A stretch of DNA of 64,000 nt from Escherichia coli (GTDB lineage: Bacteria; Pseudomonadota; Gammaproteobacteria; Enterobacterales; Enterobacteriaceae), in NCBI RefSeq assembly GCF_003334785.1, contig NZ_QOWV01000003.1; one strand, 5' to 3'. A program made the position numbers. Positions 60,901-63,900 of the stretch are shown one piece after another. Positions within the stretch are counted from its first letter, which is position 1, and each line of letters begins with the position of its first letter.

Positions 60901-63900
60901 GGTGGCTCTAATGCGTCTCTGGATGCGATTGAGGTGCTGGCTAACGCTCTGAGCGTTGAGCCGTGGCAGTTGTTAGCGCCTGGCCCATCTGAAGATAACG
61001 ACTCGGAACTGTTGGTTCCATACGCAGCCGATGGTTCCTGTTTTCACCCCGGTTTGGCGAGCACCCGTGATGGTTCGTTTGGCGTAGGTGATAAAGCGGC
61101 TCAGAAGCGTTTTGGCACGTTTGCTGAAGCTCTTGAGTATCTTCGTAGCATGGAGACAGCAAAATGGCGTAGGCCTAATCCTAGCGGCAACTGGGGTATC
61201 GTATCAGCGGTTCGGTGGGACAAACTGAGAAAGTAGCTCAAGTGTAAGTTTATGAATTTTTATGCTGTATGGATGAACAGTATTCATTAGATGCTGATAG
61301 TCTTATGTTTCATCAGCCCTTTGTTTCTATAAGAGTGAATAAAACAGCAAAATGCGGGTGCGTTACGGTGGCGTTTCGCTTTGGCTCTTAATGGCTTAAT
61401 TCATATAAATAACATTGAGTTAAATAGTTATTCTGAACAAGGTCTGCCGGGGTCTAACTGGTTTCAAAATCCGAACGCAGTGGCGTTTATTCAACGTCCA
61501 CATAGCTGACAAATGTTCTTTCCTCCCGACTCGGCAGACCTCCAGAAACATTAAAAGGCAGGTATGGCACGTTGATGTTTTATGCCGCCACGAACACTCG
61601 GTTTGATTCCGTCCAGCGGATCAAACTTAATATGTAGCCCCTAGAACAAAAAGGTCCTACGATTGCTCTCTTAACAGCTAACAGGAACGTGATTACAGCA
61701 GGTTATAGAGACTTAGGTTCGAGTCCGGCCTTCGGCACCAAGTTACTAAATTCCTTACAATACAGTTGGTTAGACGATTAAATCTGTCTCTTTTGCCTGT
61801 AAGAAATGCTCTGTTATGTCCCTTGAAAAAGCCGCTGTGGTTGATAGTGGTAATTGGGATGTTAACTCATAGCGGCGTGTCGTTCCAAGCGTCAAACACG
61901 TACTGACTCAACTTGAAAGCTATGACGTAGCCACCGTCTCTAAACAATCCCAAAACTTTTAGTGCAGCGCATTTTAGCCCGATGCCCCCATTCTGTCGCC
62001 GTCGCGAGACGCCGCAGGGGATAAACAGGTTTATGGTGGTCACGGTACTTGCAGACCATATGCAAGCTCTGCCAGCGGTTCGGCCTCGCTCCCCTTGGGT
62101 ACATGGTCATCCTGATAAGCCTCACTAACTGACATAACCCTGATGAAGTCGCAAGAGGCTCCGCTTGTTGTCTTACCACCAACGGGGCTTTATGGATTCT
62201 ATTGCTTAATATATGATTGTATCAAACTTAGACTGCATAATTTAAACGAACATAACAATCAGGCAGGGGAAGAATGATAAAGCCATTTTCTGTGAGGTAT
62301 GGTCATGTTGACGTTAGAGAGCATGTCCAGCTGAATGATCTTAATTCTGATACACGCATGGCATTGTGGAATTGCTTATATCTTTTCCTTTGGACTAACA
62401 ATCGTCAAACTGCTACAGCAACAAAATGTGCGCAGTCTGTGTGGATATATTATCTAAATCAACCTGCGGATAATATTCCTCGTTATGAAAGTGGATACAA
62501 AAGTGATAAGACGTTGCTGACTGCTATCCGAGATTATATATATGGGGAAGCATGGTATTTGGTATATGATTTAATTGAGTTCATCATTGAGAGAACTAAT
62601 TCATATATTAATCTATCGAAGCATCTCAATTCCATCTTTAAAAAGCATGGCGTTGGTTATACCATAATAAATGGTTGTATTACTCCTATTTCAAATGATA
62701 ACGAAATTGAAAGTGTTCAGAACGCAGTTGATAATGGCACTGATTCATCGCGTAGCCATTTCGAAAGGGCGTTACAACTAATGACGGATAGAGAGCAGCC
62801 AGACTACAGAAACTCGATTAAAGAGTCTATCTCTGCAATTGAATCTTTATGCAGGAAAATCACGGGCAATGATAAAGGAACCTTGGGGGCTTGTCTTAAA
62901 GCTATAGAGGAAAAAGGATATATACACTCTGCAATGAAAGGCGCTTTTAGTCAGCTCTATGGTTATACAAGTGATCAGGGTGGAATACGTCATGCGCTAA
63001 CAGAAGAAGATGTAAATCCTACCTTAGCTGAAGCTAAATTTATGTTAGTCACTTGCAGTGCGTTCAGTAATTATCTGTTGTCAAAAATAAGTGATTAATT
63101 ACAGGTTTATAGTTACGAGTGGGTTAGTTACCCACTCCCTTTAAAATTATTCACCAGACTCTAATCTTTTTTCTCTTTTCTCATCTCTCCTTTTTATTGC
63201 CAAATCGTGTTGCTCTTGCAGATACGTGCGTTCTTCGTTTCTATCGCTTGAAGTATATACGTCTGCTTTTACTTTTTTAGCTCCTTGTGCAATAGGTTTC
63301 CAATCCTCTCTTATACCTTTAATTTGTTCTGCAATTTGCGTCAATGGGCTTCTCGCTCCTAGATAACTTATTCCTTCAAATGTCGCCATGTCATACACAT
63401 ATTCATTTGTTTCTCTATCGTTTGATTTAGGTTTGCTTGCCCAGCTTATATTAATATTATAAATTTGATCTTTGATTTGTTCATACTTACAGAGATTGCT
63501 GGTAAGTGATTGCCCATTTTTTAACACGCTTACCTTACTAAACGGAATCTCACTTTTTTCTCTATGCTCCGCATTTACTAGTGGAGGATCAAACACAACC
63601 TCAACATTATAGGCAGGTGCGTTCCCTGTATTAGCAATGTTAATATCAAAGTAAAAAGCGGCCCAAGGGTTTGGCTCAAGTGTTACAACTATATGGGGTT
63701 GAGCTGATGCGTCAACCATTCTTTTTGTCTCGTCTGCTCTGAAGTGGTGAAGTGGTTTACTGAATTTGGCCACCTGAACAGAGGTGATATGCTCACCTCA
63801 GAACAACACAGGTGCTCCAATGAAAAAAAGAAATTTTAGCGCAGAGTTTAAACGCGAATCCGCTCAACTGGTTGTTGACCAGACATACACGGTGGCAGAT

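What the first reader, a model, noticed from the sequence alone, without database searches (positions are those of the whole stretch)
61237..61715. 480-bp non-coding interval upstream of the right attachment repeat
No plausible ORF lies between the XRE gene and the attR-like repeat. The stretch contains an imperfect hairpin (gtttgattccg-tccag-cggatcaaac, about 61608-61634) roughly 80 bp before the repeat. This is where recombination-directionality or integrase arm-binding sites would be expected.
Basis: seen in the sequence. Interest (0 to 1): 0.3.

Follow-up and report, generated by a model that had tools for sequence, protein, structure and literature searches.

The report
Right-end attachment arm of leuX island
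The 480-base gap is the non-coding right end of a small mobile island inserted in the E. coli leuX tRNA gene; it holds likely integrase docking sites and a conserved DNA-damage (LexA) operator, while the hairpin that drew attention is probably a decayed tRNA-end copy of no proven function.

Summary
The interval is real, non-coding and is the right end of a precisely inserted 7.3-kb leuX island; a strain with the empty site exists. The hairpin lies at 61601-61626, 7 nt from the stated position. It is no better than chance (10 of 150 shuffles) and is absent from leuX islands of other genera.

The interval has three modules.
1. 61237-61378 follows the XRE gene in nearly all enterobacterial relatives. 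It carries a consensus-quality LexA box (61263-61282) and 11-nt GCGTTAC tandem repeats (61360-61376).
2. 61379-61526 is shared only with 'short' tRNA-Gly islands and holds a candidate outward promoter.
3. 61527-61715 is leuX-specific.

The last 80 nt hold tandem copies of the motif CTCCTACAA (61638-61663). A third copy sits just before the integrase start (54489-54504). In 12 islands from E. coli to Pseudomonas this motif is about 140-fold enriched in the arms, at fixed positions and in one orientation.

The hairpin coincides with a degenerate copy of the tRNA-Leu 3' end, probably a fossil attachment site.

So arm-type sites are present, but not in the hairpin. This is a new member of a known kind. 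The conserved SOS box is the one unexpected feature.

The parts
54402..54429 (+). attL core: the last 25 nt of leuX tRNA-Leu(CAA) plus AGT; exact 28-nt direct repeat of 61716-61743
   Evidence: (D1)
54489..54504 (+). P' arm-type site CCCCTCTTACAAAAGG (CTCTTACAA, one mismatch to CTCCTACAA), 13 nt upstream of the integrase ATG at 54517
   Evidence: (D6). Conserved in five leuX islands from five genera while the sequence to its left diverges.
54517..56427 (+). Integrase gene, 636 aa: DUF6538 N-terminal domain, SAM-like domain and tyrosine recombinase catalytic domain
60772..61236 (+). XRE-family HTH gene (154 aa) that precedes the interval. Its HTH is closest to restriction-modification 'control protein' models.
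61247..61252 (-). Candidate -10 hexamer TAAACT of a leftward promoter whose -35 falls inside the LexA box. Weak in the window (TTCATC, 19-nt spacer); better in relatives (TTAATA or TTAACA, 16-nt spacer).
   Evidence: 14 of 19 sequences at the same alignment column. Consensus match only.
61263..61282 (.). LexA (SOS) box TGCTGTATGGATGAACAGTA, 27 nt after the XRE stop codon
   Evidence: the only CTGT-N8-ACAG in the 64 kb; 19.6 bits against a median of 19.7 for known operators; next best in the window 8.7; 14 of 18 relatives score at least 13.3. Also.
61293..61317 (.). Conserved dyad GCTGAT-N13-ATCAGC followed by CCTTTGTTTCT. Possible weak terminator of the XRE gene.
   Evidence: -3.6 kcal/mol, no covariation. 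Weak evidence.
61360..61376 (+). 11-nt tandem repeats GCGTTACGKWG, ending in GGCGTTT. There are 1.5 units here, 2.5 in most relatives, 3.5 in strain CX05 and 2 in a Pseudomonas relative. They mark the end of the XRE-linked module.
   Evidence: the only exact match in the window
61381..61409 (+). Candidate outward (rightward) promoter TTGGCT-17-TATAAA. Relatives with cargo genes have stronger promoters at the same place, ahead of + strand cargo.
   Evidence: Consensus match only.
61461..61489 (+). Nearly invariant block GTTTCAAAATCCGAACGCAGTGGCGTTTA, which repeats the CAAAAT...GTGGCGTTT theme of 61346-61376
   Evidence: columns 251-281 nearly identical in six islands
61522..61550 (+). Decayed arm-like repeats CCTCCcgac...CCTCCAGAAACA. 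They occupy the same position as the CTCCTACAA pair that follows this module in the tRNA-Gly islands.
   Evidence: Inference.
61600..61627 (+). Pseudo-core, a degenerate copy of a tRNA-Leu 3' end.
   Evidence: D1, 19/28; best non-self match in 128 kb; next best 18; 22 matches over 28 aligned columns, one gap, to the Ewingella-type tRNA-Leu end
61638..61663 (+). P-arm arm-type sites. The first copy, CCCCTAGAACAA, is degenerate and has an indel. The second copy is GTCCTACGA (61655-61663, two mismatches).
61687..61701 (+). Conserved box ACGTGATTACAGCAG, 15-29 nt left of the core, shared by leuX islands of four genera
61716..61743 (+). attR core: exact 28-nt repeat of the leuX 3' end; right boundary of the island
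   Evidence: empty site

Best explanation
The interval is the non-coding right end of a small tRNA-integrating island and does two jobs.

1. Attachment arm (P arm, roughly the last 80-190 nt). The island's tyrosine integrase has a conserved DUF6538 N-terminal domain. It most likely contacts two tandem CTCCTACAA-type sites (61638-63) together with one site in the other arm, just before its own start codon (54489-504). This would bridge the arms to the 28-nt tRNA core during integration and excision.

2. Regulatory module belonging to the XRE gene (the left 290 nt). It holds:
- a LexA operator overlapping a candidate leftward promoter, antisense to the XRE gene;
- 11-nt GCGTTAC tandem repeats;
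- a candidate rightward promoter. In relatives this position drives a variable cargo slot. In the window, which has no cargo there, it points out of the island across attR. After circularisation it would point at the integrase gene.

The hairpin lies in a decayed copy of a tRNA-Leu 3' end. That copy is preceded by decayed arm-like repeats and an ACGTTGAT box at the same spacings as in the live arm. It is most likely a fossil attR left by an earlier tandem insertion and deletion.

Shown by comparison: the boundaries, modularity, motif positions and conservation. Inferred: who binds, promoter activity and SOS control.
For: Boundaries:
- Exact 28-nt repeat and an empty site in another strain.

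Modularity:
- 61207-61375 matches 70-83% in about 15 relatives, whatever follows it.
- 61376-61526 matches only the short tRNA-Gly islands.
- 61527-61715 matches only leuX islands.

Arm sites:
- CTCCTACAA (one mismatch allowed) gives 32 hits in 2,880 nt of arms against 8 in 101,851 nt of island interiors.
- All arm hits are on the + strand, at -81/-68 and +59 to +65 (Pseudomonas: -72/-59 and +65/+78), from E. coli to Pseudomonas.
- The attL copy and the attR pair are conserved in five leuX islands while their flanks diverge.
- The integrase N-terminal approximately 40 residues are nearly identical between leuX and tRNA-Gly types. This fits a shared arm motif combined with different cores.

LexA box:
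- 19.6 bits, at the median of known operators. The next best site in the 64 kb scores 8.7. It is conserved in 14 of 18 relatives at the same offset.
- A minus-strand -10 sits at the same alignment column in 14 of 19 sequences, with its -35 inside the box.

Cargo slot:
- Plus-strand genes start 170-320 nt after the XRE stop in the long islands, behind strong promoter matches just after the repeats.

Fossil attachment site:
- The pseudo-core is the best non-self match to the core in 128 kb (19/28). It matches an Ewingella-type tRNA-Leu end at 22 of 28 aligned columns, with one gap.
- The leuX interval is about 90 nt longer than the tRNA-Gly one (479 against 386-394 nt).

Not coding, not a known RNA:
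-.
Against: - No binding, transcription or excision data exist for this island.
- In the window the P-arm copies are degenerate (two mismatches, and an indel copy). This island's arm may therefore be impaired.
- Both candidate promoters are weak consensus matches, and the standard scan reported none in the interval.
- The LexA box does not overlap the rightward promoter.
- A global alignment of the putative fossil unit with the live unit is not better than shuffles. The 19/28 match is only one step above the background maximum of 18.
- No attP junction was found in metagenome contigs.
Confidence: 0.65

Rival explanations
1. The hairpin is itself a functional recombination or transfer site. It could be a symmetric core-type site bound by two integrase core-binding domains, acting as a secondary or decoy att site or a synapsis aid. 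Alternatively it could be a directionality-factor site or an oriT-like hairpin.
For: Two 10-bp inverted arms around a 5-nt spacer have the geometry of tyrosine-recombinase core sites (inference). The hairpin resembles the real core, and most of its differences from a tRNA-Leu end increase the dyad symmetry (my reading). The stretch 61583-61665 has 1 difference between the Nissle-type and O157-type islands, where about 6 would be expected.
Against: It is absent from leuX islands in Kosakonia, Serratia and Ewingella, which keep the arm sites. No counterpart exists in the tRNA-Gly islands. It is not more stable than hairpins in 7% of shuffles. No relaxase or directionality-factor gene is annotated in the island.
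Confidence: 0.12
2. The interval encodes a small RNA or a small protein, for example an SOS-induced type I toxin or regulator. The conservation would then reflect that product rather than DNA sites.
For: A LexA box next to short ORFs (61269-61391; 61381-61509). A candidate promoter lies at 61381-61409. The interval is more conserved between the Nissle and O157 types (about 8% divergent) than the XRE gene is (about 13%). A 37-codon frame stays open in 4 of 6 orthologues.
Against: No Rfam match even at E = 10. The covariation term is positive, with only 1-2 compensatory pairs on either strand. No terminator-like site occurs in the interval on either strand. The ORFs are broken by 11-nt and 22-nt indels or by in-frame stops, have no ATG or Shine-Dalgarno, and show many radical replacements. 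Conservation comes in short invariant blocks, which is typical of DNA sites.
Confidence: 0.08
3. Apart from the core repeat, the interval is functionless filler: decayed remains of former cargo and old junctions, conserved only because the islands diverged recently.
For: Variants that have lost the integrase gene still keep the interval at 97.7% identity. The arm copies in the window are degenerate. The hairpin is at chance level. No attP junction was found.
Against: The motifs are conserved at fixed positions across genera, and into Pseudomonas, where the flanking sequence is unalignable. LexA-box quality is retained in 14 of 18 relatives. The integrase gene is intact in the window and in Nissle 1917.
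Confidence: 0.1

Closest known systems
attP arms of heterobivalent tyrosine integrases (phage lambda Int with P1/P2 and P'1-3 arm-type sites; also P2, HP1, L5, Tn916) - from established knowledge
   Same: A short motif, different from the core, is repeated in tandem at about one helical turn in one arm and present in the other arm. The integrase gene sits next to the core. The target is the 3' end of a tRNA gene, which is restored by a copy carried on the element. The integrase has a separate N-terminal domain.
   Different: The motif (CTCCTACAA) and the N-terminal domain (DUF6538) are uncharacterised. The integrase is unusually long (636 aa). No directionality factor is evident. The P' site lies directly on the integrase translation-initiation region. 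Binding is not demonstrated.
Pcirc of ICEclc (an outward-facing promoter that drives intB13 only after circularisation; PMC5812530)
   Same: The far end of a tRNA-integrating element carries a candidate promoter that faces outward when integrated and would face the integrase gene in the circle. The integrase is long, and most relatives target a tRNA-Gly gene.
   Different: Here the promoter is only a consensus match (TTGGCT-17-TATAAA), about 310 nt from the core. In relatives the same position drives cargo genes. The element is 7 kb with no conjugation genes. Relatedness to IntB13 was not tested.
LexA-repressed promoters of mobile elements (integron integrase promoters, colicin operons, prophage antirepressors such as 186 tum) - from established knowledge
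   Same: A consensus-quality CTGT-N8-ACAG operator is conserved within a mobile element and overlaps the -35 of a candidate promoter.
   Different: The box lies at the 3' end of a regulator gene. The best candidate promoter reads antisense into that gene rather than into an integrase, toxin or antirepressor gene. No SOS response has been measured.
Tandem islands at leuX in E. coli O157 (two adjacent elements, called SpLE5 and SpLE6 from my memory of the Sakai genome paper, not checked here)
   Same: The O157 copy of this island (91.7% identical over the interval) is followed, after the core repeat, by a second island with a truncated P4-type integrase. This shows that serial insertion at leuX occurs, which is the process proposed to have left the pseudo-core.
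   Different: The pseudo-core lies inside the island rather than between two recognisable islands, and only about 88 nt of the supposed second element would survive.

Membership tests
Attachment arm of a heterobivalent tyrosine integrase | Exact duplication of the target core at both ends, and existence of the empty site | tested here: met
   28-nt repeat at 54402-54429 and 61716-61743. Empty leuX site with identical flank spacing in strain WG5::PA8.
Attachment arm of a heterobivalent tyrosine integrase | A repeated motif distinct from the core, present in both arms at fixed distances and orientation | tested here: met
   CTCCTACAA at -81/-68 and at +59 to +65 (Pseudomonas: -72/-59 and +65/+78), all on the + strand. 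32 hits in 2,880 nt of arms against 8 in 101,851 nt of interiors. In the window the P-arm copies are degenerate.
Attachment arm of a heterobivalent tyrosine integrase | The motif is conserved in distant relatives while surrounding arm sequence diverges | tested here: met
   Alignments of leuX islands from five genera. tRNA-Gly islands, including Pseudomonas fluorescens.
Attachment arm of a heterobivalent tyrosine integrase | The integrase carries a dedicated N-terminal arm-binding domain (lambda Int / Tn916 Int type: three-stranded sheet plus helix) | tested here: inconclusive
Attachment arm of a heterobivalent tyrosine integrase | The integrase binds the arm sites and they are required for recombination | not testable with these tools
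   Needs EMSA or footprinting and mutant att substrates.
LexA (SOS) operator | A 20-nt palindrome TACTG(TA)5CAGTA scoring within the range of known operators | tested here: met
   19.6 bits on a matrix built from 19 E. coli operators that I recalled from the literature (known range 13.4-26.9, median 19.7). The next best site in the 64 kb scores 8.7. It is the only CTGT-N8-ACAG in the window.
LexA (SOS) operator | Conserved in orthologous positions | tested here: met
   14 of 18 enterobacterial relatives score at least 13.3 bits at +27 to +31 after the XRE stop. Absent in the Pseudomonas relatives.
LexA (SOS) operator | Overlaps a promoter that it can occlude | tested here: inconclusive
   A minus-strand TAAACT -10 with its -35 inside the box occurs in 14 of 19 sequences. 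Scores are 5-10 bits, and in the window the spacer is 19 nt. The standard promoter scan found nothing here.
LexA (SOS) operator | LexA binding and DNA-damage induction | not testable with these tools
   Needs EMSA or ChIP, and RNA measurements with and without mitomycin C.
Structured non-coding RNA (any Rfam family or a new one) | A match to a covariance model, or compensatory base-pair changes | tested here: not met
   No Rfam match in 61100-62300 up to E = 10, except a 16-nt chance hit outside the interval. RNAalifold gives a positive (penalising) covariation term and only 1-2 compensatory pairs on either strand.
Intrinsic terminator (reading of the hairpin) | A G+C-rich stem followed by a T-run | tested here: not met
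   No terminator-like site in 61237-61760 on either strand. The stem is followed by TTAATATG on the + strand and CGAGTGTT on the - strand.
Protein-coding gene | An open frame kept in relatives with codon-position bias | tested here: not met
   No CDS in the RefSeq records.
Pcirc-type outward promoter | A promoter at the integrase-distal end that faces outward and is fused to int on circularisation | tested here: inconclusive
   The candidate TTGGCT-17-TATAAA at 61381-61409 is conserved in all six short islands. Its orientation is correct. Activity and the circular form were not observed.

The most novel reading that the evidence does not exclude
The XRE-linked module is an SOS switch for a widespread family of small tRNA-borne islets. 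LexA would directly repress a promoter that reads antisense into the island's control-protein-like XRE regulator, and onward into the divergent cargo genes. DNA damage would then silence the regulator by convergent transcription. The GCGTTAC repeats and the outward promoter would then express the cargo slot and, in the excised circle, the integrase. This would be an antisense, LexA-direct route to island induction that needs no cleavable repressor and no antirepressor.
Probability: 0.15. Interest if true: 0.55.

Novelty: new member of a known kind. Interest (0 to 1): 0.3.

Why it matters
The window's own interval occurs in 813 of 5,426 complete E. coli genomes, including Nissle 1917, ATCC 25922 and O157:H7. 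Related islands sit at tRNA-Leu or tRNA-Gly genes across the Enterobacterales and in Pseudomonas, and they carry variable cargo that includes candidate anti-phage genes.

Three results have practical use:
- The island boundaries, the arm-site motif and its geometry can be used to find the ends of such islands automatically.
- They also give defined substrates for testing an uncharacterised class of long DUF6538 integrases.
- The conserved LexA box is a testable lead on how these small islands, which have no obvious excisionase or cleavable repressor, might sense DNA damage.

None of this overturns current understanding of site-specific recombination.

Tried and rejected
- Known sRNA Esr41: it lies in another island (SpLE1/OI-43), not here.
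- Rfam at gathering and at E = 10: nothing in the interval.
- RNA consensus folding on both strands of six orthologues: no covariation.
- Small ORFs: not conserved.
- Phage collection: no match. Plasmid collection: only a fragment of XRE gene plus module A1, next to a DUF6998 gene and flanked by IS elements.
- Hairpin as terminator: no T-run.
- Hairpin significance: 10 of 150 shuffles are as good.
- Global alignment of the putative fossil unit (61521-61627) with the live unit (61634-61743): no better than shuffles or other island segments. The fossil reading therefore rests on the pseudo-core and on collinear short motifs only.
- An inverted partner of the GCGTTAC repeats upstream of the XRE gene (60567-60584), which would have suggested an invertible segment for the island's serine recombinase: I saw it by eye but did not find it as a family-wide feature in the upstream regions, and did not pursue it.
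- GCGTTAC repeats as arm-type sites: rejected, because they lie 1-1.8 kb from the core in the long islands.
- Fold search of the integrase N-domain: not discriminating.
- Sequence search of the integrase against solved structures: only a marginal XerC-like hit to the catalytic domain.
- attP junction in metagenome contigs: none.
- Literature searches for DUF1643/DUF6538 and SpLE5: nothing relevant.
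Full report
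**Where we are.** The window is E. coli chromosome of the Nissle 1917 / ATCC 25922 type. leuX, the tRNA-Leu(CAA) gene, lies at 54342-54426. Downstream of it come:
- a 636-aa site-specific integrase;
- a NIPSNAP gene;
- a frameshifted DUF1643 gene;
- a small serine recombinase;
- a 281-aa protein;
- a membrane protein;
- an XRE-family HTH gene (60772-61236).

After the XRE gene comes the interval in question. The sequence at 61716-61743 repeats the last 25 nt of leuX plus AGT exactly. Strain WG5::PA8 has leuX followed directly by the same AbiJ gene at the same 534-nt spacing. The 7.3-kb block is therefore a precise insertion, and the interval is its right end.

**Checking the observation.**
- No CDS is annotated under the interval in any RefSeq record examined.
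- The ORFs are 40-43 aa. They are disrupted by 11-nt or 22-nt indels or by in-frame stops in relatives, and substitutions show no clear codon-position bias.
- The hairpin exists at 61601-61626, 7 nt from the stated place. It is the most stable local hairpin in the interval, at -7.8 kcal/mol as DNA.
- However, 10 of 150 dinucleotide shuffles of the interval contain one as good. It has no T-run, so it is not a terminator.

**Relatives.** The window's own interval occurs in 813 of 5,426 complete E. coli genomes. There are a 97.7% type and an O157:H7 type at 91.7%. A more distant island in strain CX05 has the same gene order but sits at tRNA-Gly(CCC). I searched one genome per species with an alignment of XRE homologues. 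This gave about 25 full-length loci in Enterobacterales, Pseudomonas and Betaproteobacteria. In 12 of them both ends could be defined by a tRNA-end repeat: tRNA-Gly(CCC) in nine, tRNA-Leu(CAA) in three.

**The interval has three modules**.

*Module A1 (61237-61378).* It follows the XRE stop codon at 70-83% identity in nearly all enterobacterial relatives, whatever comes next. It is even present on E. coli plasmids that carry only the XRE gene plus a DUF6998 gene between IS elements.

*Module A2 (61379-61526).* It is shared only with the 'short' tRNA-Gly islands, in which attR lies 386-394 nt after the XRE stop. In the 'long' islands, one or two plus-strand cargo genes replace A2, and attR lies 1.1-1.8 kb away.

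*Module B (61527-61715).* It is shared only with leuX islands.

**Arm-type sites.** The repeat search on the window paired 54485-54506 (attL arm) with 61634-61655 (attR arm) (D6). In the tRNA-Gly islands the same places hold exact copies of CTCCTACAA:
- two in tandem, 13 nt apart, at -81 and -68 from the core;
- one at +59 to +65, immediately upstream of the integrase ATG.

Over 12 islands, allowing one mismatch, there are 32 hits in 2,880 nt of arms against 8 in 101,851 nt of interiors. All arm hits are in the same orientation. The pattern holds in Pseudomonas fluorescens, where the surrounding sequence is unrelated.

In leuX islands of Enterobacter, Serratia, Ewingella and Kosakonia, the attL copy is embedded in an almost invariant ATCGCGTAGCCCCTCTTACAAAAGGGTATACGAGGCGATG. 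In three of these genera (the Enterobacter contig ends before attR), the attR pair and a box ACGTGATTACAGCAG are the only conserved parts of the arm.

The first approximately 40 residues of the integrase (DUF6538) are nearly the same in the leuX and tRNA-Gly types. That fits a shared arm motif combined with different cores.

In the window itself the P-arm copies are degenerate: GTCCTACGA at 61655-61663, and an indel-bearing copy at 61638-61650.

**The hairpin.** It coincides with 61600-61627. This is the best non-self match to the 28-nt core on both strands of the window (19/28; next best 18). It matches the Ewingella-type tRNA-Leu 3' end at 22 of 28 aligned columns, with one gap.

To its left lie CCTCC-containing repeats (61522-61550) at the position where the tRNA-Gly islands have their CTCCTACAA pair directly after A2. 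An ACGTTGAT box lies 31 nt before the pseudo-core; the live arm has ACGTGAT 29 nt before the core.

The leuX interval is also about 90 nt longer than the tRNA-Gly one. I therefore read 61521-61627 as a fossil attR unit, left by tandem insertion and deletion. Tandem occupancy of leuX is seen in O157.

Two cautions apply to the fossil reading. A global alignment of the two units is not significant. The hairpin region is absent from other leuX islands.

There is also a weak counter-hint. The stretch 61583-61665 has one difference between the Nissle and O157 types where about six are expected. Most departures of the pseudo-core from a tRNA end also improve its dyad symmetry. A functional symmetric site is therefore kept as a rival.

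**The XRE-linked module.** The sequence TGCTGTATGGATGAACAGTA (61263-61282) is the only CTGT-N8-ACAG in the 64 kb. I built a matrix from 19 E. coli LexA operators that I recalled from the literature. On it the site scores 19.6 bits, at the median of the known sites; the next best site in the window scores 8.7. Fourteen of 18 enterobacterial relatives keep a site of at least 13.3 bits at the same offset.

A simple sigma-70 scan of the 19 aligned sequences places a minus-strand -10 (TAAACT, 61252-61247) at one column in 14 of them. Its -35 falls inside the LexA box. Such a transcript would run antisense into the XRE gene and toward the divergent cargo genes.

Module A1 ends in 11-nt tandem repeats, GCGTTACGKWG, whose copy number varies from 1.5 to 3.5. 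They recur in a Pseudomonas relative. Just after them the long islands have strong promoter matches ahead of their cargo genes. All six short islands have TTGGCT-type -35 hexamers, a 17-nt spacer, then TATAAA (61381-61409 in the window).

In the window this candidate promoter faces out of the island. In an excised circle it would face the integrase gene, as Pcirc does in ICEclc (PMC5812530). These are consensus matches only. The standard scan found no promoter in the interval.

**What it is not.**
- There is no Rfam match.
- There is no covariation on either strand.
- There is no phage homologue.
- The known EHEC sRNA Esr41 lies elsewhere.
- No attP junction was found in metagenome contigs. 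This is weak negative evidence, because assemblies rarely capture circles.

**Verdict.** The rest is a regulatory module of the neighbouring gene. The kind of thing is well known. The specific motif, the DUF6538 integrase family and the conserved SOS box are new details. Interest is modest.

Noticed in passing
window 61360-61376; L002 9124-9151; L003 9124-9162: The 11-nt unit GCGTTACGKWG varies in copy number between otherwise close islands: 1.5 units in the window, 2.5 in O157 and most relatives, 3.5 in strain CX05. Two units are also present after the XRE gene of a Pseudomonas relative (L022). The binding partner is unknown.
   Followed up: partly
L084 (E. coli ampC_0069), 4333-10016: A 97.7%-identical copy of the interval sits in an island that has lost the integrase gene. 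leuX is followed by an unrelated minus-strand gene. The right end therefore persists in decayed islands.
   Followed up: no
protein P0067 (Yersinia intermedia, 210 aa): An annotated 'integrase' is a fusion of the first 84 residues of the DUF6538 integrase to the XRE protein from about residue 22. It looks like an island whose whole interior was deleted.
   Followed up: no
window 59131-59976 and 62274-63098: The 281-aa island cargo protein matches the N-terminal 165 residues of the PADLOC candidate defence protein PDC-S60 (E 6e-27). The gene just outside attR is a full-length PDC-S32 / AbiJ-NTD4 protein (E 6e-104).
   Followed up: partly
window 60772-61236: The HTH of the XRE protein is most similar to restriction-modification 'control (C) protein' models (E 1e-18) and to CapH. 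Its conserved C-terminal 70 residues match no family. A block TTCAAAATGTC...GAGCGTGGCC upstream of the gene is conserved from E. coli to Pseudomonas, and it echoes the CAAAAT...GTGGCG theme found twice in the interval.
   Followed up: partly
L003 9376-9413 and other tRNA-Gly islands: In the tRNA-Gly islands the P arm ends with TGGAGCGGG, the exact inverted copy of the core's CCCGCTCCA, 15 nt away. This may be a pair of core-type integrase sites that mimics the acceptor stem. No equivalent was seen in the leuX arm.
   Followed up: no
L024 10887-10961 (Pandoraea); L028 618-694 (Gallionellaceae): In two betaproteobacterial relatives the XRE end of the element abuts a tRNA gene on the opposite strand (tRNA-Val, tRNA-Pro). 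The element's orientation relative to its target tRNA is therefore not fixed across the family.
   Followed up: no
L016 1967-2051 and 12255-12339 (Ewingella americana): This island is flanked by two complete tRNA-Leu(CAA) genes (51-nt exact repeat). The right-hand copy is preceded by a leuX-like promoter region.
   Followed up: no
L005 (contig labelled MAG: Collinsella sp.): A 9.9-kb contig binned as the actinobacterium Collinsella matches the E. coli island exactly over everything compared: leuX and attL arm (179 nt), XRE protein, and 61500-61760. This is probably a mis-binned E. coli contig.
   Followed up: no
window 54430-54470; L021 and L016 attL arms: Right after the core, the Serratia and Ewingella islands carry a clear terminator-like hairpin (CCTTA-TTTTG-TAAGG followed by a T-run). 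This would replace the native leuX terminator. The E. coli island has only the AT palindrome TTGTTTTAAAACAA at that place.
   Followed up: no
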